64,000 nucleotides of DNA from an uncultured Chloroflexia bacterium (GCA_963736025.1 CAVTNH010000012.1:168913-232912); one strand, 5' to 3'; positions 5,913 through 31,932 are shown, numbered from the stretch's first letter. The notes: generated from the letters alone by a model not told the origin. Numbers and translations are program-made.

Positions 5913-6760
5913 GACGCCACCAACCCTTGGACTGCGTCGGGCGGGTTCGGTTCGCGGTCCGCAGCCGGGACTTGCAGGTCGCCCAACGCCCGGCCGTCCT
6001 TGTCCGAGCGACGCCGGAACTCCTCGGCCAAGGCGCGGTAGGCGATCGCTCCGGCGGAATCGGGCCGATAGATCGCGATCGGCTGGCCGTGACTCGGCGC
6101 CTCCGAGAGACGAACGCTCCGAGGGATCACGGTGTCGAAGACCGACGGCCCAAGGTGTCGACGCACCTCGGCGGCGACATCGGCGGAAAGGTTGGTCCGA
6201 CTGTCGTACATCGTCAGGAGGACGCCCTCGAGCTCGAGGTCGGGATTCAGGTTGTCGCGGATGAGGTTGAGCGTGGCAAGCAGTTGGGTCAGTCCCTCCA
6301 GGGCGTAGTACTCACATTGGAGCGGGATGAGCACGGCATCAGCAGCGGTCAGGGCATTCACGGTCAGCAGCCCGAGTGACGGCGGGCAATCGATGAAGAT
6401 GGTGTCGTATCGGTCGGCGACGTCCTGGATGAGCCTCGAGAGTCGCCGCTCCCGTGCGTCTACTTGCGCGAGTTCGACCTCCGCCCCAGCGAGCGCGACG
6501 GCCGATGGCACCACGTCGAGGCCAAGTGGGCCGCGCACGGCGATCGGCGCCAACGACACGTCGTCGATCAAGGCGTCGTAGATCGAACGCTCGAAGCCGT
6601 TCCGGTCGAGCCCGAAGCCGCTCGTGGCGTTCCCTTGCGGATCGAGATCGATCACGAGGACCTGTTCGCCCGCAAGCGCGAGGTAGCTTGCGAGATTGAC
6701 CACCGTCGTGGTCTTGCCGACGCCGCCCTTCTGGTTCGCGCAGGCGATCGTTCGGCCCAC
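5909..6760 (-). CDS. parA: Chromosome partitioning ATPase ParA/Soj
   Basis: NQKGGVGKTTT deviant Walker A; overlaps parB by 4 nt. Confidence 0.9.
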
Positions 6761-6899
6761 TCAGTGACCTACCTGGGATGCTCTCACGGTGATTGATTCT
6801 ACCATCGGAGACGGTTGGACCTCGGTTCGGGAGGATCACGACGGATGGTCCCACGCGGCCCTGCACCGACGGTTATCGGCGCCAAGCTCGGCGGCCATT

Positions 6900-6915
6900 T
6901 GTTTCACGTGAAACA
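6900..6915. promoter_or_regulatory. parS: parS site, TGTTTCACGTGAAACA
   Basis: Perfect 16-bp palindrome identical to the consensus ParB-binding parS, upstream of parA. Confidence 0.85.
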
Positions 6916-7075
6916 GGGAGAGGTGCCCCCGAAATCGGCGCACATCCGGGGGGCGGGCGAGACCCCGATCGGGGCGGCTCCTGCCCCTCCGCGCGATGCA
7001 GCCACCAGCGACGGTCTGGCTGCCCGTTGCCCAAAGGACGCCCTGGTCCGCCCATCAACCGGGAGACGAGCTCAC

Positions 7076-7091
7076 TGTTTCACGTGAAACA
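7076..7091. promoter_or_regulatory. parS: parS site, TGTTTCACGTGAAACA, second copy
   Basis: Second perfect copy 176 bp from the first, in the parA/mreD intergenic region. Confidence 0.85.
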
Positions 7092-7227
7092 CGCTCGATC
7101 GGGGGCCCGTTGCCGCTCTTGAGGCTCCGTGGGATACTGGCCGGAGACGTCGCCGCCGAATCGACCGCGTCGAGAGCCGCGTAGGCGGGCGCGCGACCTT
7201 CGGACACATGCCGAGGATCGACGCTCA

Positions 7228-7728
7228 ATGACCCTGCTGCTCGCTGCAGTCGGTGCGACGGTGGCGGCCCTGTTCGAATTGACCGTGACCACGTACCTTC
7301 GGGTCGGTGGTGTCCAGCCGCACTTGGTGTTGGTGCTGGCCGTCGTCGTCACGATCGCGGTCGGGCTGGATGCAGGCCTCGTCTGGGCCTTCGTTGGCGG
7401 GCTCGCACTTGATGTCTTGGCTCAACGACCACTCGGATCGACGGCTTTCGCGCTCCTGCTCTGCGTGGGCGGGGCGTCGGTCTTCGGTCGCCTCTTCTCT
7501 CGTGTTCGTCCCCTCGCCCCCATCATCGCCACATTCTTCCTGAGCATTGTCTACTCCATGGTCTTGTTCGCTCTCTTCAGCGCCCTTCGTGCGCCGCTCC
7601 CGGTGGCTGACCCGCTGAGTCTCGTCGTGCCCCCGGCGGTCTACGACGCCATCCTGGCGACGCTGATCGGGCCGCTCGCCGTCTCGATCCACGACCACCG
7701 CGTCCAGGTGGAGCGCGTCGACTGGTGA
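7228..7728 (+). CDS. mreD: Rod shape-determining protein MreD (small polytopic membrane protein)
   Basis: About 166 aa, entirely hydrophobic helices, immediately upstream of and overlapping mrdA and rodA. ATG chosen at 7228 inside the longer ORF. Confidence 0.55.
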   Translation: MTLLLAAVGATVAALFELTVTTYLRVGGVQPHLVLVLAVVVTIAVGLDAGLVWAFVGGLALDVLAQRPLGSTAFALLLCVGGASVFGRLFSRVRPLAPIIATFFLSIVYSMVLFALFSALRAPLPVADPLSLVVPPAVYDAILATLIGPLAVSIHDHRVQVERVDW

Positions 7729-9626
7729 ACACGTATCTGGACGGCCGACGCGAACCTGCGACGCGCCGGCTGTCACGCTTCCTCGTGTTCGGCATCGCCG
7801 TCATCCTCGCGATGGGCGGTCTGACGGCCCGGCTGTTCTACCTCCAGATCGTCAACGGCGGCGAGTACACGACCCTCGCGACCGCGAATCGAACCGTGAT
7901 CGAGTCGATCCCCTCGACCCGCGGCCTCATCTACGATCGCGCCGGCCGTCCATTGGTCACGAACGTGCCGATGTTCGCCGTGAAGATCCGACCGGCCGAT
8001 CTCCCGGCGCAGTTCCGGCCGGAGGTGGTCGACCGACTCGCGGCGATGATCGGGATCGACCCCGCCGGGATCAACGCCGCGATCGACAGCAACCCGGGCT
8101 CATCGTTCGACCTCGTCCGGATCGCCGAGGACATCGACGAGGACACCGCTCGGCTCATCGCGGAGTCCTCCTCGCAACTGCCCGGTGTCGAGATCTCGGT
8201 CGAGGCCCGCCGCGAGTATCCCGACGGGGCCCTGATGGCGCAGATCGTCGGCTACACGGGACCGGTGTCACCGGAGCAGCTCCCGGACCTCCGCGCGAAG
8301 GGCTACCTGCCGGACGACCTCCTCGGCAAGGCCGGTGTCGAATCCTCGTACGAGACCTATCTGCGAGGCGTCTACGGCAGGGAGCGCGTCGAGCGAAATG
8401 CCCTTGGCCAGAAGACGCAGGTGCTCGCCACCGAGAACGAGGCGAGGCCCGGTGACTCGCTCACCCTCACGATCGATACCAAGATCCAGAAGGAAGCCGA
8501 GAAGGCCTTGAAGTGGGGCATCAAGGCGATCGGAAGCAAGCGCGGCGTGTTCATCGTGATGAACCCGCAGACCGGCGAGGTCCTGGCGATGGTGAGCCTG
8601 CCCACCTACGACAACAACCTCTTCGCGCGCGGCATCAGCACCAAGGAATTCAACAAACTGGTCAAGAACAAGGACCTGCCGCTCCTGAACCACGCGGTCC
8701 AGGCGCACTATCCACCCGGGTCGACCTACAAGCTCGTGGCGGGGACGGGCGGGCTCGCCGACAAGAAGATCAGCGCGACGACGAAGGTCGCAACGAAGGG
8801 GTTCCTGACCGTCGGCGCGACCAAGTACTACGACTGGAACCGTCGCGGCTTCGGCCCGTGCGACATCTATTGCGGCTTCGGCCACTCGAGCGACACGTTC
8901 TTCTTCACCGTCGGCGGCATGCTCGGCATCGACCGGCTCGCCTACTGGGCGAACCAGTACGGGTTCGGCCATCCGACCGGGATCGACCTGCCCGGTGAGG
9001 CTTCCGGGATCGTGCCGACCAACGCCTGGAAGCAGGCCACGAAGGGCGCCTCGATCTTCACCGGCGAGACGTACCAGGCGAGCATCGGCCAGGGCTATGA
9101 CAACGTCACCCCGATCCAGCTCATCAATGCCTACGCGGCGCTGGCGAACGGGGGCAAGCTGTACCAGCCACAGGTCGTGCGCGAGGTCGTCGGACCGGAT
9201 GGCGCCGTCGTGCGCCCGTTCAAGCCGGTCCTCCTCCACAAGCTGAAGGCCAAGAAGAGCGTCCTGCGCACGATGCGCAACGCGGCACGGAGCACGGTGC
9301 TGTTGCGGCACACGTATAACCTCGTCGACATGCCGATCAAGATCGCCGGCAAGTCGGGAACGGCCGAATTCGGGGAGCGCGACCGCCGAGGTCGCCTGCC
9401 GTATCACTCCTGGTTCGTGGGCTGGGTGCCCAAGGACCCCTACAACGGCTCGTTCGACAAGACCGACTCCAAGCTGATCGCCATGGCGTTCATGTACGAC
9501 TCGCGAACGATCGGCAATGCCGGCACCGAGGTCGTGAAGTACTTCTACCAGCTTCACTTCGGGATCAAGCACGACTACCGGAACTTCGATCTCATGGAAC
9601 GCGGCAACTTCTTCAGGAACGACTGA
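7725..9626 (+). CDS. mrdA: Penicillin-binding protein 2 (elongation-specific transpeptidase)
   Basis: N-terminal TM, PBP dimerisation domain, transpeptidase motifs (STYK-like region GSTYKLV, KSGTAE). Confidence 0.9.
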   Translation: MNTYLDGRREPATRRLSRFLVFGIAVILAMGGLTARLFYLQIVNGGEYTTLATANRTVIESIPSTRGLIYDRAGRPLVTNVPMFAVKIRPADLPAQFRPEVVDRLAAMIGIDPAGINAAIDSNPGSSFDLVRIAEDIDEDTARLIAESSSQLPGVEISVEARREYPDGALMAQIVGYTGPVSPEQLPDLRAKGYLPDDLLGKAGVESSYETYLRGVYGRERVERNALGQKTQVLATENEARPGDSLTLTIDTKIQKEAEKALKWGIKAIGSKRGVFIVMNPQTGEVLAMVSLPTYDNNLFARGISTKEFNKLVKNKDLPLLNHAVQAHYPPGSTYKLVAGTGGLADKKISATTKVATKGFLTVGATKYYDWNRRGFGPCDIYCGFGHSSDTFFFTVGGMLGIDRLAYWANQYGFGHPTGIDLPGEASGIVPTNAWKQATKGASIFTGETYQASIGQGYDNVTPIQLINAYAALANGGKLYQPQVVREVVGPDGAVVRPFKPVLLHKLKAKKSVLRTMRNAARSTVLLRHTYNLVDMPIKIAGKSGTAEFGERDRRGRLPYHSWFVGWVPKDPYNGSFDKTDSKLIAMAFMYDSRTIGNAGTEVVKYFYQLHFGIKHDYRNFDLMERGNFFRND

Positions 9627-22621: not shown

Positions 22622-23271
22622 TGGCACGCATCGTCGCCGACGATCCGGCCGGCCGGGCCATCGCGATCGAGGTGCTCCGCGACGGCGGCATCGTCGCCGT
22701 CCCGACCGACACGGTCTATGGGCTCGCGGTCGCACTGGACACGCCCGGCGGCATCGAGCGCCTGTTCGAGGTGAAGGCGCGGCCGCCCGACAAGGGAATC
22801 GTCCTCTTGCTCGACGAGGTGGCCCAGGCCCGCCGATTCGGGATCATGGGCCCGGCCGCCGAGGCACTCGCGGCCGCCTTCTGGCCGGGCGGTCTGACCG
22901 TCGTCGTCGCGCAGCATCCGGACGTCCGGTTGCCCGATGTGCTCACGGCCGGGTCGCCCACGATCGGCCTGCGCGTCCCGGACCACGAGGCTCCGCGCGC
23001 CCTCGCGCGCGACCTCGGGCCGCTGCCGGTCACCTCGGCCAACCTCTCCGGCCGGCCCGAGGGTCGGGACGCCATCGAGATCGACGCGCTGTTCGGCGAC
23101 TCGATCGAGCTCGTCCTCGACGGCGGCCCCGCCCAGGGCGGTCCCGCCTCGACCGTCGTCGACGCCTCCGGGGACCGACCACGGGTGCTGCGGCCGGGCG
23201 CGATCCCGGTGTCGCGCCTTGTCGAGGTCCTCGAGGCCGCCGGCATCGCCCACGACCTCGCCGCGGACTGA
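22621..23271 (+). CDS. tsaC: L-threonylcarbamoyladenylate synthase (TsaC/YrdC/Sua5 family)
   Basis: VPTDTVYGL and TSANLSG motifs. Confidence 0.85.
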
Positions 23272-23369
23272 CATTCCCGCCGGTCGGTCGAGGCCGGACC
23301 CGTTCGTGGGAAGATAGCGCGCGGCGTGTCGGTCGGACCACGAGACCGGCAGGAAGGAGTCGGCGAACC

Positions 23370-24698
23370 ATGACCATCTCCCCAGTCAGGGGCGTCGCGC
23401 TTGAGTCGATCGCGGACGTCGACCCCGTCCTGTGGGAGGCGATGCTGGGCGAGCGCCGCCGCCAGCACGACAAGATCGAGCTCATCGCCAGCGAGAACTA
23501 CGTCTCCGCCGCCGTCATGGAGGCCCAGGGCAGCTGGCTGACGAACAAGTACGCCGAGGGCCTGCCGGGCAAGCGCTACTACGGCGGCTGCGAGTACGTG
23601 GACATCGCCGAGCGGCTCGCCCAGGAACGCGCGCTCGCCCTCTTCCCGGACGCAGAGCATGTCAACGTCCAGCCCCACTCGGGCGCGCAGGCGAACATGG
23701 TCGCGTACTTCAGCGTCCTCCAGCCGGGCGACCGGATCATGGGCATGAACCTCGCCCACGGCGGCCACCTGACCCACGGGATGGCCTTGAACTTCTCCGG
23801 CCGGCTGTACGAGGTCCACCCGTACGGCGTCCGGAAGGACACCGAGCGCATCGACTACGACGCCATGGAGGCGCAGGCGAAGGAGGTCCGGCCGAAGCTC
23901 ATCGTCGGCGGGGCCAGCGCCTATCCGCGCATCTGGGACTTCGACCGGATGGCCGACATCGCGCGAAGCGTCGGTGCCCTCCTGTTCATCGACATGGCCC
24001 ACATCGCCGGTCTCGTCGCGGCGGACGTGCATCCGAGCCCATTCCCGCAGGCCGACATCGTCACCACGACCACCCACAAGACCCTGCGCGGGCCGCGTGG
24101 CGGGATGATCTTCAGCCGGGCCGAGCTGCCGCCGTCGGTCGATGCGGCCGACTTCCCTGCGGTCAAGGGCAGCCTGGCCGCGTCCGTCGACCGCAACGTC
24201 TTCCCGGGCATCCAGGGCGGGCCGCTGATGCAGGTCATCGCCGGGAAGGCCGTGGCCTTCAAGCTGGCCGCCGAGCCGACGTTCCGCGAGGACCAGCGGC
24301 GCACCGTCGAGAACGCCCAGGTCATGGCCGAGACCCTCGCGAGTCTCGGTGCCCGGGTCGTGTCGGGCGGCACGGACAACCACCTCCTGCTCGTCGACGT
24401 GACGCCCCTCGGCGTGACCGGCAAGGAGGCGGAGCACCTGCTCGACGAGATCGGGATCACCGTCAACAAGAACGCGATCCCGTTCGACGAGCTCCCGCCC
24501 AACACGGCCTCGGGGATCCGGATCGGCACGCCGGCCACGACGTCGCGTGGCTTCGGGCCGGACGAGATGCGCACGATCGGCCGGATCATCATCGATGCGA
24601 TCGCCAGGCGCGACGACGCCGGGGCCCAGGCGCAGCCTGGCCGGCGAGGTCCGCGAGATCGTCGGTCGGTTCCCGGTGCCGGGCCTGCCCGCGGCGTG
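23370..24698 (+). CDS. glyA: Serine hydroxymethyltransferase; C-terminal frameshift near 24650, so the nominal ORF runs to 24767
   Basis: IELIASENY and [16 protein letters not shown] motifs. The corrected tail [20 protein letters not shown] would stop at 24696-24698. Confidence 0.9.
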
Positions 24699-24763
24699 AG
24701 GTCGAACCTCCTGGCCACCCGGTTCGCGGGTCCGGCCACCCGCGGGCCGAGTCGAGCGCCGCG

Positions 24764-25984
24764 GTGACCTTCATCTCGCTTGATGGCTATGTCGGACCGA
24801 TCGCGCTGGCATTCGCCGCCGCTGGGCTCCTGGCGCTGGTCCTGACGCCGCTCGTCAGGCGGGTCGTGGTCCGCTACAAGGTGGTCGATCGACCCGAAGC
24901 CCGCCGAGTCAACACGTCACCCATCCCCAGAGGCGGCGGCATCGCGGTCGCGACGGCGTTCCTCGTGGTGGTCGTGGTCTTCCTCCTGTTGAATGCCGAG
25001 CTCCTGCGCCTGCTCGTGCCGCTCCGGCAGAGTCAGCTCGCGGCCCTGCTGCTGGGCGGCGCGCTGGCCGCGGCGATCGGCGCCCTCGACGACCTCCTGG
25101 ACCTCCGCGCACGCTGGCAACTGGCCGGTCAGATCGGTCTCGGGCTGTTCGCGGTGGTTCTCGGGATCAACATCGGGTTCATCGCGAACCCCTTCGGCGG
25201 CCCGGTGATCCGGTTCGAGGGCGCGGTCGCGGTCGCGTTCACGGTCTTCTGGATCGTCGGGATGATCAACAGCATCAATTTCATCGACGGGCTCGACGGC
25301 CTCTCGTCCGGGATCGCCTTCATCGCCGCCGTCACCCTGGGGCTCATCAGCCTGACGAGCGACGTCAATCAGCCGCTCATCGCGGTCCTGTGCTTCATCC
25401 TGGCTGGTTCGCTGCTCGGGTTCCTTCGCTGGAACCTGCACCCCGCATCGATCTTCCCCGGCACCAGCGGCGTCCAGTTCGTCGGGTACACGCTGGCACT
25501 CCTCGCGATCCTCGGCACGGCCAAGGTCGCGGTCGCCCTGCTCGTCCTCGGCATCCCGATCATCGACACGTTCTGGATCATCGTTCGCCGGGTCTCGCAG
25601 CGACGGTCCCCGTTCAGTCCGGACCGCGGACACATCCACCACCGGATGCTCGACCTCGGCCTGTCCCATCGACAGACCGTGTTCGCCATCTACGGGCTGT
25701 GCCTCGTTCTCGCGGTCCTGGCCCTGGCCCTCTCCGGGGTGACCCAGCTCTACGCGTTCGTCGGCGTCTTCCTCGCGTTCGGGCTGGTGCTGTTCATCCC
25801 GACGCGCGGCGCCTTCCGGCGACCCGAGGAGCTGGAGGCGACGACCTACGACGACGACCCACCGAAACCCGTCACGGAGGACCCGCCCCAATCCGTGGCG
25901 GACGAGACCCCGCGACCCGTGGCGGACGAGACCCTGCGACCCCCGACGGAGGATGCGAGACAGGAGATCCGAGGGCCCGGCTGA
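24764..25984 (+). CDS. wecA: Glycosyltransferase family 4 (MraY/WecA-like), UDP-GlcNAc:undecaprenyl-phosphate GlcNAc-1-P transferase
   Basis: 11-TM protein with [18 protein letters not shown] and GDTG-like region. Same synteny position as Mtb rfe. Confidence 0.8.
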
Positions 25985-26140
25985 CCCAGGACTTCCGTAC
26001 TGGTGACGGCTGCCAACAGTCCTTGTCGGTCGGGTGCAGTGCGGTGCGGAGTGTGGCGATGGGCCGAAGTGGGGGGCGGTGCTAGCATCGAGCCGTGCTG
26101 GTCCCGGCAGGGAGGCTGGGTCCGTCTACGCTGAGGTTCG

Positions 26141-27716
26141 ATGACCCCCGACATCATTCTCCTGACCGGGACGATCGTGGTCGCCGTGCTGGCCGTGGTC
26201 GTAGGCCTGTTTCGGGCTGTCCTGGAGCGACGGCGCGGGCCGCTCTGGGAGCAGTACCGGTCCCGTCGGATCGATCCGCAGCGCCTTGAGCGCGCGGTCC
26301 CGGGCCCGACGCCCGAAGACAGCACGGTTCGCGCGCTCGAGCGGCAGGCGCCCGCGATGGGATCGCGGCCGGCGTTCGCCGCCCTCGGCGCCTCCTATGC
26401 GGCGGAGCCGGTCGACGCGGATATCGAGGACGCAGGCGCGTCGCCCGCGCACGCGTACCCTTACGCGTACGCGAGGGAGTCGGACGAGCCCGACGCCGAG
26501 ATCGGGTCCGCGGTGGCCGCGTCCGCGGCGGTCGCGTCCGCCGTGCTCGAGCCCGAGGCGCCGATCGAGCCAGAAGTCGTCGAAGCCGACCTGGCCACGG
26601 CCGAGTCCGTCACGACCGAGCCGGACGCAGACGAGTCCGACACAGCGATCCCGGAGCCCGAGGCGGAGCCGGAGTCCGAGCCCGGCCTCTCGGAGGCTGC
26701 CATGGCCGAGCTCGGGATCGTCGCGACCCGCAAGCGACCGGCCGGCAAGCGCGGATCGGCCCCGCCTGTCGAAGAGCCCGTCGAGACGGCCGAGCCCGAG
26801 ACCGTCGAGCCTGCCGCGGCCTCGGCCGGGCTGGTCGACGAGCCCGCCGAGCGAGCCAGCGGCCGCCTCGGCCGAGCCGGTGCCGTTGTTCCTGCCCGGC
26901 ACCTACACGGTCGGTGCCGCCGACCACGAGGAGCCTGCGATCAAGCGGGACGACGCGCCCGCCACCGCGGCTCGGGCTGCCGCCATGACGGCCGGGTACG
27001 CGCCAACGGCCCGCGCGGTCTTCGTGCCGCCCCCGCCGGATGTCATCGAGGACGAACTCGCGTACCGGATCGGCGTCCGCGGCGCGCGGCGGCCATCGCA
27101 ATCGATGGCGGTCGAGGCCGCCGACGGACCCGAGGCGCTCGCCCCGGTCCTGCCGACGGTCGAGACGGAGAGCTGGCCGGAAAGGCGGAGCAGGCGTCGT
27201 CGACGCGCGGCAATCGGCATGACCACTATCGCCGCAGCCGTCGTGTTGGCGGTCGGTGCCAGCACGCTGCCAAGCCTGCTCGAACAGGGCGGCGTCCTGG
27301 GCGAGACCGGTCAGCCGCGCGCGTCGGCTGCGGGCGGTGTCGCTCTCGAGACACCAGGCCAGTCGCTGCCGCCCGCCACGGGCCAGCCGACACTGTCGCC
27401 AGAACCACATGCCTCTCCGTCGTCGGCCGCGCCGAGCCCGTCGCCGTCCGCGTCCGTCACGCCCCGGCCGACGCGCAACGCGGTCCGCCCGCCGATCGCC
27501 AGGTTCGACTGCACCAGCGTCGGCTTGGTCCTGACATGCGATGGGTCCAAGTCGAGCGGCGCCACCGCCTACGCGTGGGACTTCGGAGAGGGCTCGAAGG
27601 AGTCCGGCGTGACGGCGTCCCACACCTACACGTCGTCGGGCAGTTACCTCGTCACGCTCGTGGTGACCGGCCAGTCGGGGTCGACCTCCAGATCCCAGTC
27701 GTTCATCGTCCCGTAG
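26141..27716 (+). CDS. Membrane-anchored acidic Glu/Pro/Ala-rich protein with a second TM, Ser/Pro linker and C-terminal PKD domain; frameshift near 26850
   Basis: N-terminal TM (IILLTGTIVVAVLAVVVGLF), then a long low-complexity acidic region. RRSRRRRRAAIGMTTIAAAVVLAVG is a second TM. PKD domain FDCTSVGLVLTCDGS...WDFGEG...HTYTSSGSYLVTLVV. Confidence 0.6.
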
Positions 27717-27721
27717 CCGGC

Positions 27722-27769
27722 GGCGGCGACGGGCGGGTCGATATCGACGGGTTCGTCGTGCTGCGGTAG
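27722..27769 (+). repeat. 48-bp near-identical copy of the 3' end of the downstream gene (29558-29605)
   Basis: ggcgacgggcgggtcgaTatcgacgggttcgtcgtGctgcgGtag versus ggcgacgggcgggtcgaCatcgacgggttcgtcgtCctgcgCtga. Both encode GDGRVDIDGFVVLR*. Confidence 0.8.
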
Positions 27770-27814
27770 GCTGCCGATCCGGTCGTATTCAAACAGGCCC
27801 GATGGGGGGAACTC

Positions 27815-29605
27815 TTGCGAATCCGACGTCGCGCATCCGCCGCGCTGCTCGTCGTGCTCGTCGCCTCGCTGGCGACGCCCGCGGGCGTGTTCGCCGCGGT
27901 CCCGGTCGCGAACGACGATCCAGGTATAGCCTGTGGCGGCGGGAATTTCGGCGGCGCCTTCCCGATCCCCGAGGACTACCGCGTCGCCGGCCCCTACGGT
28001 GAATGGTTCACCATCATGGGCACATGCTCCCTCCTCGGGAATGACACGGACGCCGACGGCGACGCGCTGACGTACGAGTTCGTCACGGCGCCTGCGCATG
28101 GGCAGGTCCTCAAGATCGACGAGAACGGGTTCGCCTACCAGGTCGAGCCTGACTACAGCACGATCGCGGGTGACCAGCCCGGTGGCAACTGGGTCTCGGA
28201 TAGCTTCACCTATCACGCCTGCGACGCGACGGATTGCTCGGCTCCGGCCACGATGCGTTTCTGGATCGCGCCGGTCAACGATCCGCCCACATTCACGGGT
28301 GGGCCGTCGTTCATCGAGGTCGACGAGGACAGCGGTCCGTACAGCGCGCCATGGGCAAGTGCGATCTCGCCTGGACCGCCAAGCGAATCCGCGCAGACGG
28401 TCCACTTCGAGCGTCTCGGTCGACACGCACGGCTTGCGCGACTTGTTCACGGTCGAGCCCGCCATCTCCTCGAGCGGTGCCCTGACCTTCACGGCTGGCC
28501 CTGACCAGTACGGTCTCGCCGACGTCACGGTCCGCGCCAAGGACGACGGCGGGCTGGAGAACTACCGCGTCCCGGGCTTGCTCGTTCAGCCGGACGACAC
28601 GAGCGACGAGGTCACGTTCGAGATCGTGGTCTATCCGGTCGATGAACCTCCGAATCACGCCCCCGTCGCCGACGACGAGACGCTCACCGTCGACGAGGAT
28701 GCCGGGCCGACCACCGTGCCGGTCCTCGATGGGGACGTCGACCCCGACGGCGACGCACTCGAGATCCTGTCGGCGAGCGATCCGTTGCACGGCACGGTCG
28801 AGGTCTCAGGCGACGGCTCGGGACTGACCTACGAGCCCGACCCGGGCTATCACGGCCCGGATTCGTTCACCTACACGATCAGCGATGGGTCCGACACCGA
28901 TACGGCGACAGTCAGCGTCACTGTCGTCCCCCACCCGGGACCTCCTCGTGACGCAACGCCACCGTGGTCACGGCCCCGATCGCGCGATGGGTCGGGCAGA
29001 CGGTCGCGACTGGGACGACGACGGCGCGGATCAGCTGGGGCGCGACGGACGCTGGCTCCGGCGTCATGAGCTACAAGCTCCAATCCAGCGTCGATGGGGC
29101 CGGCTGGAAGACGATCGCCACCTCATCGGCGACCACGACGTCGATCGACCGGAATCTCAAGACGGGCCACGCATATCAGTTCCGAGTCCGCGCCACCGAC
29201 GGCGAGGGCAACGTCAGCTCGTACGCGACTGGTGCCTCGCTGACCCCTGTCCGGTACTCGGAGGCGAGCGCTCGGATGACGTACCTCGGTGCCTGGAAGA
29301 AGACGACGTCGCCGAAGGCACTTGGCGGCGCAGCGCGCCACGCGACCGCCTCCACGAAGCGAGCGACGTTCCATTTCACGGGCTACGACGTGGGCTGGAT
29401 CGCCACGCGAACCACGTCAAGTGGCAAGGCCCGGATCTTCATCGACGGGATCCTCGTCGGGACCGTGGACCTCGACCGCGCCAGCACTGTCTACCGGAAG
29501 CTGGTCTTCGCCCGCCACTTCGCCACGCTCGCGGCCCACGACCTGGAGATCCAGCCGGTCGGCGACGGGCGGGTCGACATCGACGGGTTCGTCGTCCTGC
29601 GCTGA
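27815..29605 (+). CDS. Secreted cell-surface protein with cadherin-like/VCBS repeats, an FN3-like domain and a C-terminal beta-sandwich domain ending GDGRVDIDGFVVLR; frameshifts near 28410 and 28950
   Basis: Signal peptide MRIRRRASAALLVVLVASLATPAGVFA. Repeats VANDDP, VNDPPTF and VDEPPNHAPVADDETLTVDEDAG...DGDALE. FN3-like block TARISWGATDAGSGVMSYKLQSS...YQFRVRATD. Confidence 0.6.
29558..29605 (+). repeat. Second copy of the 48-bp repeat (3' end of the surface-protein gene)
   Basis: See the entry at 27722-27769. Confidence 0.8.
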
Positions 29606-29704
29606 CCGCGTGGAACCGGCCGATCGCGGCCCGAAGGTTGCGGGACGGTCGCGGCGACCCGGCGGTCGCCTCTGATATACTTCGGCCGCCTTGATAGGTC
29701 GCCC

Positions 29705-29926
29705 ATGAACGAGCCTGTCCGAGGGATGGCCTACGTCGCCCTCTTCTCGGAGATCGGCGTCTCACTCCTGGTGACGACACTGCTCGGCGTGCTGGTCGGC
29801 CGTTGGGTCGATGGGCAACTCGGGACCCTCCCGGTCTTCACGTTGGTCGGCTTCTTCGCCGGCGCCGGGGCCGGGACCCTGATGATCTACAGACTGGTCA
29901 GCCGGTTCCTGAAGACGATCGAATAG
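29705..29926 (+). CDS. atpZ: AtpZ/AtpI-like small 2-TM membrane protein preceding the ATP synthase operon
   Basis: 73 aa with two hydrophobic helices (GVSLLVTTLLGVLVG, VFTLVGFFAGAGAG); position immediately upstream of atpB. Confidence 0.6.
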   Translation: MNEPVRGMAYVALFSEIGVSLLVTTLLGVLVGRWVDGQLGTLPVFTLVGFFAGAGAGTLMIYRLVSRFLKTIE

Positions 29927-29999
29927 CCGGTCTCCTTCGCGACCGGTCAGGGAGGATGCGAGCGCGGCGTCGAGCCGCGCTCCTGTGTGTGGAGCAAGC

Positions 30000-31037
30000 G
30001 TGTCGAGCGAGCAGGTCGTGACCGACGAGGTCCCCCAGGCCCCCGAACCGCAGCCGAAGCGCGGTCGCGGGCTCTCGGCGCGCTGGTTCACGCTCATCGG
30101 CCTGGTGATCGTCCTGAACATCGTGGCGCTCATCTTCGTGCCGCCGTTCCCGCGTGAAGGCGCCCCGGGAGACGCGTGCGCCTTCCCCGTCTGCTTCATC
30201 GAGGGCACGCTCGAGTTCCCCGCGCCCCACGTCGTCTGGGCGCCCGAGGGCTCGACGCCGCCGCCGGCCAGCGCGCTCATCGCGTTCTACCCGAGCATCA
30301 GCTCGACGATCCTGACGATGTGGATCGTCATGGCGGTCGTGGCCATCGGCTCCTTCCTGATGGTCCGTGGCTCCAAGCTCATCCCCGGCCGCGGCCAGAA
30401 CGTCTTCGAGTGGTTCTACGAGTTCCTGAGCGACTTCGGCCTTGGCATCGCCGGCCCGGCCGCCCGGCCGTACATACCGCTGTTCGTCGCGTTCTTCCTG
30501 CTCATCCTGTTCTCCAACTGGAGCGGGCTGATCCCGCCGGTCGGTCGGGTCGAGGAGCTGCGCGCCCCGACGAGCGACGTCAACATCACGCTCGGCCTGG
30601 CGCTCGTCAGCTTCGTCTACTTCGAATTCCAGGGATTCCGACGCCTCGGGGTCCGTGGCTATCTCTCGAAGTTCTTCCCGGTCTATGAATTCAAGAACGG
30701 GATCGGCGCCGGGGGCATCGCGATGTTCGTGGGCCTCGTCGAGCTCATGCTCGAGTTCGTCAAGCCCGTGACGCTCTCGATGCGACTCTTCGGCAACATC
30801 TACGGCGGCGAGGTCGCGCTGGGCGTGATCACCGCCCTTACCATCGCGATCATCCCCGTCGGCCTGCTCGGCCTCGAGGTCATGTTGAACGCGATCCAGG
30901 CGCTCATCTTCAGCATCCTGACGCTCATGTTCATCGTGCTCGCGATCGAGAGCCACGACCACGAGGAAGGCCACATGGCCGAGGAGGCGATCGACGCCAT
31001 CGATGGCGAGGGGCGCCAGCTCCAGCCAGCCCACTGA
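30000..31037 (+). CDS. atpB: F0F1 ATP synthase subunit a
   Basis: LSMRLFGNIYGGE with the essential Arg. GTG start with GGAG ribosome-binding site. N-terminal extension relative to typical subunit a. Confidence 0.9.
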   Translation: MSSEQVVTDEVPQAPEPQPKRGRGLSARWFTLIGLVIVLNIVALIFVPPFPREGAPGDACAFPVCFIEGTLEFPAPHVVWAPEGSTPPPASALIAFYPSISSTILTMWIVMAVVAIGSFLMVRGSKLIPGRGQNVFEWFYEFLSDFGLGIAGPAARPYIPLFVAFFLLILFSNWSGLIPPVGRVEELRAPTSDVNITLGLALVSFVYFEFQGFRRLGVRGYLSKFFPVYEFKNGIGAGGIAMFVGLVELMLEFVKPVTLSMRLFGNIYGGEVALGVITALTIAIIPVGLLGLEVMLNAIQALIFSILTLMFIVLAIESHDHEEGHMAEEAIDAIDGEGRQLQPAH

Positions 31038-31116
31038 AGCACGGCGCCCATCGGCGCCACCACCACGGTCCCAATGAACCCAGGCCGCCCGCCTGGGAGT
31101 AGGAGGAACACACGAC

Positions 31117-31338
31117 ATGGATTACACAGGCGCCGGACTCGCAGCCCTTGGCGTGATCGGTCCGGGCATCGGCATCGGGATCCTCGGCGGCCTGGCCGCC
31201 ACCGCGATCGGTCGCAACCCCGACGCGGCCGGACAGATCCGCGGCATCGCGATCATCCTCGCTGCGTTCGCCGAGGGCCTCGGCGTCCTCGCGATCGTCG
31301 TCGGCCTGCTCGCGATCTTCATCCAGCCGACCACGTAG
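31117..31338 (+). CDS. atpE: F0F1 ATP synthase subunit c
   Basis: GIGIGILGG...FAEGLGVLAIVVGLL hairpin proteolipid. Confidence 0.95.
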   Translation: MDYTGAGLAALGVIGPGIGIGILGGLAATAIGRNPDAAGQIRGIAIILAAFAEGLGVLAIVVGLLAIFIQPTT

Positions 31339-31362
31339 TCGGACCGGGACGGAGTAGGCAAC

Positions 31363-31932
31363 GTGGACATCCTGGCCGTCGCGTCCGGAGTCGGTCGAGA
31401 CACCATCCAGCTGGCCGCGGAAGAGGGTGCGGCGCTGTTCCAGATCAACCTGTTCTGGGTGATCGTCAGCGCGCTGAACTTCATCCTCTTCTTCGCGATC
31501 ATCTGGGCGTTCGCGCTGAAGCCGGTCTCGAGGATGCTCTCTGAACGCAAGGAGAAGATCGAGCAGGGCCTCAAGGACGCCGAACAGGCGCGCCGTGACC
31601 GCGAGAACGCGGAGACGGAGCGCGTGGCCGCGCTGACCGAGGCTCGGCGCGAGGCCAACGAGATCATCAACCGCGCCCAGAAGGTCGCCCAGGAGACCCG
31701 CGACGCGGACATCGCCGCGACGCGGGAAGAGCTGGAGCGCATTCGCGTGCGAGCGGCCTCCGATATCGAGGCCGAGAAGCAGCGGGCGATCGGCGAGTTG
31801 CGCGCGGAAGTCGCCGACCTGGCCCTCGCGGCCGCCAGTCGCGTGGTCGGCGAATCGATGAACGACGACCGACAGCGCCGCCTCGTCGAGGAGTTCCTGA
31901 AAGAGGCGGCCGTGGACGGGTCGAAGAACTGA
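31363..31932 (+). CDS. atpF: F0F1 ATP synthase subunit b
   Basis: Single N-terminal TM plus long charged coiled coil; operon position. Confidence 0.85.
   Translation: MDILAVASGVGRDTIQLAAEEGAALFQINLFWVIVSALNFILFFAIIWAFALKPVSRMLSERKEKIEQGLKDAEQARRDRENAETERVAALTEARREANEIINRAQKVAQETRDADIAATREELERIRVRAASDIEAEKQRAIGELRAEVADLALAAASRVVGESMNDDRQRRLVEEFLKEAAVDGSKN

What the first reader, a model, noticed from the sequence alone, without database searches (positions are those of the whole stretch)
26141..29705. A two-gene surface-protein insertion within the conserved wecA-atp synteny, carrying a duplicated C-terminal module
Actinobacteria place wecA/rfe just upstream of the atp operon. Here about 3.6 kb between them encodes a TM-anchored acidic PKD-domain protein and a secreted cadherin-like/FN3/beta-sandwich protein. 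The second gene ends ...GDGRVDIDGFVVLR*. A 48-bp copy of that exact 3' end, 4 mismatches and including its own stop, lies immediately after the stop of the first gene (27722-27769). That pattern looks like a footprint of C-terminal cassette exchange or recombination between paralogs. The conserved 14-aa C-terminus could also be a shared sorting or anchoring tag; it matches no sorting signal I know. Both genes carry frameshifts.
Basis: seen in the sequence. Interest (0 to 1): 0.55.

Follow-up and report, generated by a model that had tools for sequence, protein, structure and literature searches.

The report
Leftover tail of a deleted gene copy
The 48-base copy after the first gene is the leftover 3' end of a neighbouring surface-protein gene copy lost by deletion or recombination, in a locus whose copy number varies between strains of an uncultured soil Chloroflexota bacterium; it is an ordinary genomic scar, not a sorting signal.

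Summary
The repeat is real. Window 27722-27769 matches 29558-29605 at 42/48 bases (40/42 in the core), and chance predicts no such match. The organism is an uncultured Chloroflexota (Chloroflexia/Limnocylindria) MAG lineage from Nanopore soil metagenomes, not an actinobacterium. The order glyA-wecA-gene1(TM/PKD)-gene2(cadherin-like/FN3/C-terminal module)-atp holds across several species of that clade, so this is not a recent insertion.

Other assemblies of the same species carry zero, one or two gene-2 paralogs. Where there are two, the upstream paralog ends with exactly the window's extra copy plus the same downstream spacer. The copy is therefore a remnant of a lost upstream paralog. Zero-copy strains keep a single tail at the same junction.

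The shared 14 residues form the last beta-strands of a CBM6/35/36-like (CE2_N-like) jelly-roll module (model pLDDT 97). In other proteins that module is tandemly repeated and internal, so the tail is not a C-terminal sorting tag.

The frameshifts are present. They are single-base indels private to this assembly, and one also hits glyA, so they are more likely consensus errors than gene decay, though this is unresolved. Low interest.

The parts
26141..27716 (+). Gene 1: an N-terminal TM helix (about 26153-26212), a long acidic region, a second TM helix (about 27216-27275), a Pro/Ser linker and a PKD domain (27510-27701). The stop TAG is at 27714-27716. A private 1-nt insertion at about 26852 splits it into two frames.
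   Evidence: ORFs. PKD_4 at 51.6 bits. The intact 546-aa orthologue in L002/L005 aligns to both window frames, switching at 26838-26851. The extra C is seen only in the window, against L001, L002, L003 and L009. The TM helices were read from the sequence by eye.
27715..27769 (+). Relic ('tail A'): the last 14 codons plus the TAG stop of a lost upstream gene-2 paralog (2a type). Homology to gene-2 3' ends begins at AGCCGG. The relic has 2 extra nt (CCGGCGGCGGCGAC, where other copies read CCGGTCGGCGAC), which puts it out of frame with the PKD ORF here.
   Evidence: the repeat; it aligns to the 3' end of the full upstream paralog in L003 (8028-8073), L004 (4504-4549) and L020 (from 6389), and it shares their CTGCGGTAG ending.
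27770..27814 (+). Spacer between paralogs 2a and 2b, with a GGGGGGA Shine-Dalgarno-like run just before the TTG start of gene 2.
   Evidence: It is near-identical to the spacer after the upstream paralog in L003 (GCTGCCGACCCGGCCGTATCCAAACGGGCCCGATGGGGGGATCTCTTG). The Shine-Dalgarno reading is by eye.
27815..29605 (+). Gene 2 (2b type): a signal peptide (about 27815-27895), an N-terminal module with a partial Big_9 match (28028-28258), a Big_9/cadherin-like repeat (28653-28922), FN3 (29009-29212) and a C-terminal CE2_N/CBM-like jelly roll (29237-29602). Private frame-disrupting indels lie at about 28412 and about 28961.
   Evidence: domains. (the indels are private to the window against L003, L004 and L009). 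(the reconstructed product is about 596 aa). The signal peptide was read by eye.
29558..29605 (+). 'Tail B': the genuine 3' end of gene 2. It encodes VGDGRVDIDGFVVLR*, the last two beta-strands of the C-terminal module.
   Evidence: conserved in homologues down to about 30% identity. (strands at residues 112-115 and 117-121, pLDDT about 94-98).
29606..29926 (+). A conserved atp leader, then atpI (29705-29926). This is the right-hand boundary of the variable locus.
   Evidence: the same leader (GAAGGTTGCGG...TATACT...CCTTGAyAGGTCGCCCATG) follows the gene-2 tail in all related loci.

Best explanation
The region between wecA and the atp operon in this Chloroflexota (Chloroflexia/Limnocylindria-like) lineage holds a membrane-anchored PKD protein (gene 1). 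It is followed by a tandem array of secreted proteins built from cadherin-like (Big_9) repeats, an FN3 domain and a C-terminal jelly-roll module (gene-2 family). The array's copy number varies between strains: 0, 1 or 2.

The 48-bp copy after gene 1 is a deletion or recombination scar. It is the last 14 codons and stop of an upstream paralog ('2a') whose body is gone, and it is still followed by the original 2a-2b spacer and by gene 2 ('2b').

The first junction was most likely made by an illegitimate deletion at a 4-nt microhomology. The gene 1 end reads ...CCCGT[AGCC]C, and the paralog reads ...ATCC[AGCC]GGTCGGC (inferred).

The two tails then form a 42-48-bp direct repeat. Recombination between them, or with tails of other strains, explains the zero-copy strains, which retain one tail at the same junction. 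It also explains the gene-conversion tracts at paralog 3' ends.

The tail is highly conserved because it encodes the final beta-strands of a CBM6/35/36-like (Pfam CE2_N-like) module, which probably binds a glycan. It is not a sorting signal. The relic itself probably has no function.
For: Shown:
1. The repeat is real and non-random.
2. AtpI-identical loci from other samples show three architectures. L003, L004 and L020 have gene1-2a-2b-atp. The window has gene1-relic-2b-atp. L001, L002 and L005 have gene1-single tail-atp, lacking exactly window 27766-29552.
3. Window 27724 onward aligns colinearly (92.6%) with L003 from the last 46 nt of its 709-aa upstream paralog, through the spacer, into 2b. 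Relic A ends CTGCGGTAG like all 2a ends, and tail B ends CTGCGCTGA like all atp-proximal ends.
4. The left junction GTAG|CCGG is the same in the window and in L001, L002 and L005.
5. The more distant relatives L009 and L018 have gene 1 followed directly by 2b with no relic. They give the presumed pre-deletion sequence CCCGTAGCCCAA. L013 has a degraded relic at the same place (33/46 identical; score 28 against a null of 15 +/- 2.4).
6. Gene conversion: in L003 the last ~100 nt of 2a and 2b are 100% identical, against 60-75% upstream. In L016/L014 identity is 97-100% over 640 nt.
7. The C-terminal module model has pLDDT 97.4 and pTM 0.90, and the tail forms strands at residues 112-115 and 117-121. 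Foldseek hits are CBM-type jelly rolls: 3nqh TM 0.74, MiXBM 7ehg 0.68-0.72, CE2 2waa 0.69, CBM35 2w47 0.72.
8. The module has 5817 representative relatives. It is often tandemly repeated and internal, with internal copies ending PVGDGPVGVDRVEVLG.
9. The tail motif ends gene-2 homologues directly upstream of atp in 8 Chloroflexia-type genome loci.
Against: 1. No independent assembly with exactly the window's architecture (gene 1 + intact relic + 2b) was found. Two metagenome scans for the junction found none. The window arrangement therefore rests on one long-read contig, on its two halves being supported separately, and on the analogous L013.
2. The order of events is unresolved. The tail in L001, L002 and L005 is identical to the intact 2b tail plus leader of L006-L008, so it is not diagnostically a hybrid. 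The window type could instead have arisen from a zero-copy strain by recombinational re-acquisition of 2b.
3. The microhomology breakpoint assumes that the ancestral gene 1 downstream sequence looked like that of L009/L018.
4. Glycan binding by the module is inferred only from fold and domain co-occurrence.
Confidence: 0.8

Rival explanations
1. Cassette gain rather than loss. A zero-copy strain (gene 1-tail-atp, as in L002) re-acquired gene 2b from a two-copy donor by homologous recombination. The 48-bp tail served as the left homology arm and the atp operon as the right arm. This would leave a hybrid tail A: 5' from the recipient and 3' from the donor's 2a end. It comes closest to the reader's 'C-terminal cassette exchange'.
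For: Tail A combines GATATC, which is also found in the L002 and L006-8 tails, with the 2a-type CTGCGGTAG ending and spacer. Flank identities are mosaic: the window is 88.5% identical to L002 upstream but 97.7% across atp, and 92.6% identical to L003 from the relic onward. Recombination at the tails is evidently frequent.
Against: This route needs two steps, a deletion and then a re-acquisition. A single deletion from a two-copy ancestor suffices. A 48-bp arm is short for recombination between strains that are 8-15% diverged. L013 shows an old, decayed 2a-type relic before 2b in another lineage, which fits simple 2a loss. GATATC/GACATC is a synonymous polymorphism shuffled among tails, so it is a weak marker.
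Confidence: 0.15
2. The 14-residue C-terminus is a dedicated sorting or anchoring signal shared by both genes. On this reading gene 1 really ends with it, once a sequencing frameshift is corrected.
For: The motif sits at the extreme C-terminus of all close homologues. In L001, L002 and L005 the relic is in frame with gene 1, separated only by TAG.
Against: 1. The tail forms integral beta-strands of a high-confidence jelly roll.
2. The equivalent strand is internal in tandem-repeat proteins.
3. It has no hydrophobic helix or basic tail of the kind seen in LPXTG, PEP-CTERM or GlyGly-CTERM signals, and no NCBIfam sorting-signal model matches.
4. In L003, L004, L009 and L018 gene 1 ends at its own stop with no tail.
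5. A TAG separates PKD and relic in all four assemblies that have the junction.
6. The relic is out of frame in the window and decayed in L013.
Confidence: 0.03
3. Assembly artefact: the window contig is a chimera that joins a zero-copy strain to a two-copy strain at the shared 48-bp tail.
For: The source is a Nanopore metagenome assembly of a strain-diverse population. No second assembly with the same architecture was found. Private indels cluster in this variable region.
Against: A 48-bp repeat is far shorter than the reads, so it should not mislead a long-read assembler. Tail A has private features (CCGGCGGCGGCGAC, GTGCTG) found in neither parental type. Both halves of the junction are supported independently: the left in L001, L002 and L005, and the right in L003, L004 and L020. 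L013 has the analogous gene 1-relic-2b layout.
Confidence: 0.05
4. The retained copy is functional DNA or RNA, for example a hairpin, terminator or promoter element needed to express gene 2 or atp. That would explain why deletions spare it.
For: A relic is retained in at least two lineages (the window group and L013). Tail A folds into a hairpin of -33.6 kcal/mol, z = -2.6.
Against: Tail B's fold is not better than shuffles (z = -0.9). There are no promoter-like or terminator-like sites in 27600-29800 and no Rfam match. L009 and L018 have gene 2 without any relic. The L013 relic is decaying.
Confidence: 0.04

Closest known systems
Gene remnants left by deletion or unequal recombination within tandem paralog arrays of bacterial surface proteins (copy-number-variable adhesin loci)
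   Same: Tandem paralogs share conserved 3' ends. Strains differ in copy number. A short 3' fragment marks the lost copy. There are gene-conversion tracts between paralogs, and the remaining short direct repeat allows a further deletion.
   Different: The case is seen only in uncultured soil Chloroflexota MAGs. The locus is wedged between wecA and the atp operon. The direction of the events (loss, or loss followed by regain) is unresolved.
CBM6/CBM35/CBM36-type beta-jelly-roll carbohydrate-binding modules, Pfam CE2_N (PF17996) and MiXBM (PDB 7ehg)
   Same: The fold matches (Foldseek TM 0.6-0.74, probability 1.0). There is weak sequence similarity: CE2_N E = 0.016 for the window protein, with clear hits in related repeat proteins, and 7ehg at E = 0.026 by profile. 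The terminal strand closes the sandwich.
   Different: The window module scores below Pfam's gathering threshold for CE2_N. Ligand-binding and Ca2+-site residues were not examined, and no ligand is known. This subfamily has a very conserved PVGDGRVDIDGFVV end and sits after an FN3 domain.
Cell-wall-binding repeat modules of peptidoglycan hydrolases (functionally like SLH, CWB2, LysM and SH3b)
   Same: Relatives of the module occur as tandem repeats fused to Amidase_3, NlpC/P60 and SpoIID domains. That is the typical architecture of wall-targeting modules. The locus is adjacent to wecA.
   Different: There is no sequence or fold relationship to SLH, LysM or CWB2. Wall binding is only an inference here.
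C-terminal protein-sorting signals (LPXTG/sortase, PEP-CTERM/exosortase, GlyGly-CTERM/rhombosortase)
   Same: It is a short conserved sequence at the extreme C-terminus of secreted multi-domain proteins.
   Different: It has no hydrophobic transmembrane stretch and no basic tail. It is a folded beta-strand of a domain, it occurs internally in repeat proteins, and no model matches.

Membership tests
Deletion or recombination relic of a tandem paralog | A full-length paralog occupies the same position in related genomes | tested here: met
   L003 (709-aa gene at 5944-8073), L004 and L020 carry an upstream cadherin/FN3/CTD paralog between gene 1 and 2b.
Deletion or recombination relic of a tandem paralog | The relic is colinear with the paralog's 3' end and with the sequence downstream of it | tested here: met
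   Window 27724-31500 aligns with L003 8028-11797 at 92.6%. The CTGCGGTAG ending and the spacer are shared.
Deletion or recombination relic of a tandem paralog | The junction is reproducible in independent assemblies, so it is not an assembly artefact | tested here: inconclusive
   The left junction GTAG|CCGG+tail is present in L001, L002 and L005, which come from three samples. The complete window architecture was not found elsewhere. L013 is analogous but degraded.
Deletion or recombination relic of a tandem paralog | Microhomology at the breakpoint | tested here: inconclusive
   A 4-nt AGCC is shared by the gene 1 end (in L009 and L018) and by the paralog sequence before the tail. The ancestral sequence is assumed.
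C-terminal sorting signal (LPXTG / PEP-CTERM / GlyGly-CTERM type) | A signature motif followed by a hydrophobic helix and a basic tail at the C-terminus | tested here: not met
   The sequence GDGRVDIDGFVVLR has no hydrophobic helix. No NCBIfam sorting-signal model was hit at E <= 0.1.
C-terminal sorting signal (LPXTG / PEP-CTERM / GlyGly-CTERM type) | The element is independent of the folded domain and found only at C-termini | tested here: not met
   The tail forms strands at residues 112-115 and 117-121 of a model with pLDDT 97. Equivalent strands are internal in P0071, P0066 and P0122. By my count from the table, the best-matching stretch ends well before the C-terminus in most of the 150 top representatives.
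Pfam CE2_N (PF17996) / CBM6-35-36-like jelly roll | A sequence score above Pfam's gathering threshold | tested here: not met
   The window module scores 15.7 bits (E = 0.016) against a cut-off of 27.9. Relatives pass: P0066 at 113 bits and P0107 at 93 bits. P0003 has a precomputed PF17996 hit.
Pfam CE2_N (PF17996) / CBM6-35-36-like jelly roll | A beta-jelly-roll fold superimposable on solved CBMs | tested here: met
   Foldseek against PDB: 3nqh TM 0.74, 7ehg 0.68-0.72, 2waa 0.69, 2w47 0.72, all at probability 1.0.
Pfam CE2_N (PF17996) / CBM6-35-36-like jelly roll | Carbohydrate binding | not testable with these tools
   This needs binding assays. Only the co-occurrence with wall hydrolases is known.
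PKD domain (gene 1) | A Pfam score above threshold | tested here: met
   PKD_4 scores 51.6 bits (cut-off 27) and PKD 43.7 bits (cut-off 23.5).
Big_9 / bacterial cadherin-like repeats and FN3 (gene 2) | Pfam scores above threshold | tested here: met
   Big_9 scores 94.4 and 42.4 bits (cut-off 23.6), Cadherin_5 61.8 bits, and fn3 28.7 bits (cut-off 25).
Pseudogenes (true frameshift decay of genes 1 and 2) | Frame-disrupting indels that are real in the organism, i.e. shared by independent assemblies or supported by reads | tested here: inconclusive
   The indels at 26852, 28412 and 28961 are private to the window. Gene 1 is intact (546 aa) in L002 and L005, and every other assembly has its own private indels, including in atp genes. 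glyA also carries a private 1-nt insertion at about 24650. The window's atp coding sequence has none, so the indels are somewhat enriched in the variable locus.

The most novel reading that the evidence does not exclude
The CE2_N/CBM-like C-terminal module may be a non-covalent cell-wall or glycan anchor for a strain-variable adhesin array encoded next to wecA in soil Limnocylindria-like Chloroflexota. Its ultra-conserved 3' end would then double as a recombination 'handle', letting strains gain, lose and swap whole surface-protein cassettes immediately upstream of the atp operon.
Probability: 0.2. Interest if true: 0.45.

Novelty: new member of a known kind. Interest (0 to 1): 0.2.

Why it matters
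The result explains an odd-looking duplicated gene end without invoking a new sorting signal. It is the scar of paralog loss in a copy-number-variable surface-protein array. The locus is also a clean example of strain-level structural variation (0, 1 or 2 copies, and 2 to about 9 cadherin-like repeats) in an uncultured, abundant group of soil Chloroflexota. It flags a widespread CBM-like repeat module, with about 5,800 representative clusters, that accompanies cell-wall hydrolases and may be a wall-binding module. Finally, the frameshifts seen in such long-read MAG windows should not be read as pseudogenisation without support from reads.

Tried and rejected
1. RNA element in the relic or tail. 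Hairpin z-scores were -2.6 for tail A but -0.9 for tail B. There was no Rfam hit and no promoter-like or terminator-like site. Rejected.

2. 'Hybrid tail' proof that the zero-copy strains arose by an A x B crossover. I first read GATATC plus CGCTGA in L002 as a hybrid. However, the short-read contigs L006-L008 carry an intact gene 2 with exactly that tail and leader, so the marker is not diagnostic. Withdrawn.

3. GC3 periodicity scan to count frameshifts across the window. It was too noisy to use. I replaced it with multi-assembly alignments.

4. First structure model, from 8 sequences including FN3. It gave pLDDT 62.7, and below 50 in the tail, so it was unusable. I redid it with 41 sequences for the module alone.

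5. Looking up the window's own contig through P0002. It is not on record.

6. Two metagenome scans for the exact relic junction. One gave no hits and the other only an intact gene-2 tail.

7. My wecA query was translated in the wrong frame. Its hits come from a mistranslated query and were not used as evidence. The presence of wecA rests on the Glycos_transf_4 calls.
Full report
**Observation**

The window has two copies of a 48-nt segment, at 27722-27769 and 29558-29605.
- They differ at 6 positions, two of them inside the different stop codons. The 42-nt core is 40/42 identical.
- A 35-nt pattern from the repeat occurs only at these two sites in 64 kb, with 0 matches expected from shuffles.
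- Similarity stops abruptly on both sides.
- Both copies encode GDGRVDIDGFVVLR*, and the differences inside these codons are synonymous.
- The first copy begins about 6 nt after the TAG (27714-27716) that ends the PKD reading frame. The second copy is the true 3' end of gene 2.

**Source organism and population**

I looked up the exact AtpI protein (29705-29926). This returned eight contigs from other metagenome assemblies carrying an identical AtpI.
- A codon-degenerate scan of species-representative genomes for DGRVDIDGFVV returned ten loci. Eight are in MAGs titled 'uncultured Chloroflexia bacterium', isolates MFDxxxxx.
- One close homologue is named Candidatus Limnocylindrales, which belongs to Chloroflexota.
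- The MFD genomes come from deep Nanopore sequencing of Danish soils and sediments (PMC12313526).
- The lineage is therefore Chloroflexota, not Actinobacteria.
- Across these MAG species the order glyA-wecA-gene 1(PKD)-gene-2-type gene(s)-atpI-atpB recurs. The module is thus an old resident of this clade, not a recent insertion. The wecA placement rests on the Glycos_transf_4 gene calls, because my wecA query was mistranslated.

**What the extra copy is**

Comparing the window with the AtpI-identical loci by blastn gives three architectures.

| Loci | Layout between wecA and atp |
|---|---|
| L003, L004, L020 | gene 1, a full upstream paralog (2a: 5 or more Big_9 repeats, FN3, C-terminal module), a second paralog (2b), then atp |
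| Window | gene 1, the 48-nt copy, 2b, then atp |
| L001, L002, L005 | gene 1, a single tail, then atp; they lack exactly window 27766-29552 |

- Window 27724-31500 is colinear with L003 8028-11797 at 92.6% identity. That stretch runs from the last 46 nt of L003's 709-aa 2a gene, through the 2a-2b spacer, into 2b.
- At sequence level, relic A ends CTGCGGTAG followed by GCTGCCGATCC..., as 2a ends do in L003; L004's 2a shares the CTGCGGTAG ending but is followed by a longer, different spacer. Tail B ends CTGCGCTGA followed by the atp leader, as in every atp-proximal copy.
- The 48-nt copy is therefore the remnant of a lost 2a paralog.
- The left junction (gene 1 TAG, then CCGG...) is the same in the window and in L001, L002 and L005.
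- The more distant relatives L009 and L018 have gene 1 followed directly by 2b with no relic. Their gene 1 end reads CCCGT[AGCC]CAA, and paralogs read ATCC[AGCC]GGTCGGC before the tail. This suggests a deletion mediated by a 4-nt microhomology. This step is inferred.
- L013, from another species-level MAG, has a decayed relic at the same position: 33/46 identical, alignment score 28 against 15 +/- 2.4 for shuffles.

**Recombination at the tails**

- In L003 the last ~100 nt of 2a and 2b are 100% identical, while the preceding 500 nt are 60-75% identical.
- In L016/L014 the two copies are 97-100% identical over 640 nt.
- In L004 there is no such tract.
- So the conserved 3' ends undergo gene conversion. 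The relic and tail B form a short direct repeat that can delete 2b, which accounts for the zero-copy strains.
- I cannot fix the order of events. The tail in L001, L002 and L005 is identical to the intact 2b tail and leader of the short-read contigs L006-L008. My initial 'hybrid tail' argument therefore fails.
- A route in which a zero-copy strain re-acquired 2b, using the tail as a homology arm, remains possible. This is the rival explanation I rate at 0.15.

**Why the tail is conserved**

- All close homologues end PVGDGRVDIDGFVV[LIN][RK]. More distant ones end RVDLDAFVVLR or similar.
- A 41-sequence alignment gave an AlphaFold model of the last 122 residues with pLDDT 97.4 and pTM 0.90. It is an all-beta domain in which the tail forms the last two strands, at residues 112-115 and 117-121.
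- Foldseek finds CBM-type jelly rolls: BT_2959 3nqh at TM 0.74, MiXBM 7ehg at 0.68-0.72, the CE2 esterase N-domain 2waa at 0.69, and CBM35 2w47 at 0.72.
- An exhaustive HMMER search found 5817 representative proteins at E <= 1e-3. Many have 3-16 tandem copies at internal positions.
- P0071, P0066 and P0122 show internal copies ending PVGDGPVGVDRVEVLG or CVDAFDV, followed by a linker and the next repeat.
- No NCBIfam sorting-signal model matches.
- The tail is therefore a structural strand and not a sorting tag.
- Of 13 relatives I scanned, 5 carry peptidoglycan-hydrolase domains: Amidase_3 in two, NlpC/P60 in two and SpoIID in one. Others carry cohesin or CAP domains. This suggests, without showing, that the whole module binds wall glycans.

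**Frameshifts**

Multi-assembly alignments show that the frame-disrupting indels are private to the window.
- They are a 1-nt insertion at about 26852 in gene 1, a 1-nt gain or 2-nt loss at about 28412, and a missing C in a C-run at about 28961.
- Gene 1 is an intact 546-aa ORF in L002 and L005.
- Every assembly has its own private indels in the same 4.8 kb: L003 has 40, L009 has 28, L001 has 13 and L002 has 1. Some split essential atp genes.
- The window also has a private 1-nt insertion near the 3' end of glyA, at about 24650.
- It has none in 6.7 kb of atp coding sequence. The indels are thus somewhat enriched in the variable locus.
- I lean towards consensus error, possibly aggravated by strain mixtures, but real decay is not excluded.

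**Other checks**

- The relic has no convincing RNA structure. Its fold has z = -2.6, while tail B has z = -0.9.
- There is no Rfam match and no promoter-like or terminator-like site.
- Two metagenome scans found no second instance of the exact window junction.
- A chimeric assembly at a 48-bp repeat is unlikely with long reads. Tail A also has private features, but only raw reads can settle this.

**Verdict**

The 'recombination between paralogs' reading is essentially right, in the form of a deletion or recombination scar in a copy-number-variable tandem array. The 'sorting tag' and 'insertion in actinobacterial synteny' readings are wrong. This is a new instance of a well-known kind of event, and of low general interest. 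The modestly interesting by-product is a conserved, hypervariable surface-protein locus with a possible wall-binding CBM-like module in uncultured soil Chloroflexota.

Noticed in passing
window 24640-24660 (glyA 3' end): A private 1-nt insertion reads GGCGCAGCC where the other assemblies read GGC-CAGCC, GGC-CGGCC or GGC-CCGCC. It shifts the last ~20 codons of serine hydroxymethyltransferase. The proper C-terminus (...[20 protein letters not shown]) is in another frame, ending at 24699.
   Followed up: yes
window 29606-29704, and the same stretch in L001-L019: The ~100-nt leader between the gene-2 stop and atpI is strongly conserved across species: GAAGGTTGCGG...GGCGACCCGGCGGTCGCC...CTGaTATACT...CCTTGAyAGGTCGCCCATG. 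It may hold the atp promoter or a regulatory hairpin. The consensus promoter scan and Rfam found nothing.
   Followed up: partly
L021 4860-5237 (ERZ25039583 contig_3086): In this relative a Phage_integrase-family gene, together with TPR and GAF genes, lies upstream of the cadherin/FN3 gene in place of wecA and gene 1. The locus may also be a target for mobile-element integration or rearrangement.
   Followed up: no
L005 about 250-750 (ERZ25039567 contig_141149): The left part of this contig is a long (CG)n-like low-complexity run where glyA and wecA should be. This is almost certainly an assembly artefact.
   Followed up: no
L011 (CAVUOF010000019.1, labelled an Acidobacteriota MAG): This contig carries the Chloroflexia-type PKD-gene 2-atpI-atpB arrangement, with the same tail and atp leader. 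Either the contig is mis-binned or the MAG label is wrong.
   Followed up: no
L013 and L018 (both MFD04944.bin.1.217): Two contigs of one MAG bin carry the same gene 1-gene 2-atp locus in different haplotypes, one with a decayed relic and one without. The bin therefore mixes strains, or a region is duplicated across its contigs.
   Followed up: partly
L019 4487-7495; L003 5944-8073; window 27815-29605: The number of Big_9/cadherin-like repeats in gene-2 family members ranges from 2 (the window) to about 9 (L019, 1003 aa). Repeat number varies as well as gene copy number.
   Followed up: partly
window 23001-27765 compared with 29553-31500, against L002: Identity to L002 is 88.5% upstream of the relic (glyA-wecA-gene 1) but 97.7% across atp. 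This mosaic divergence around the variable locus suggests recombination between strains.
   Followed up: no
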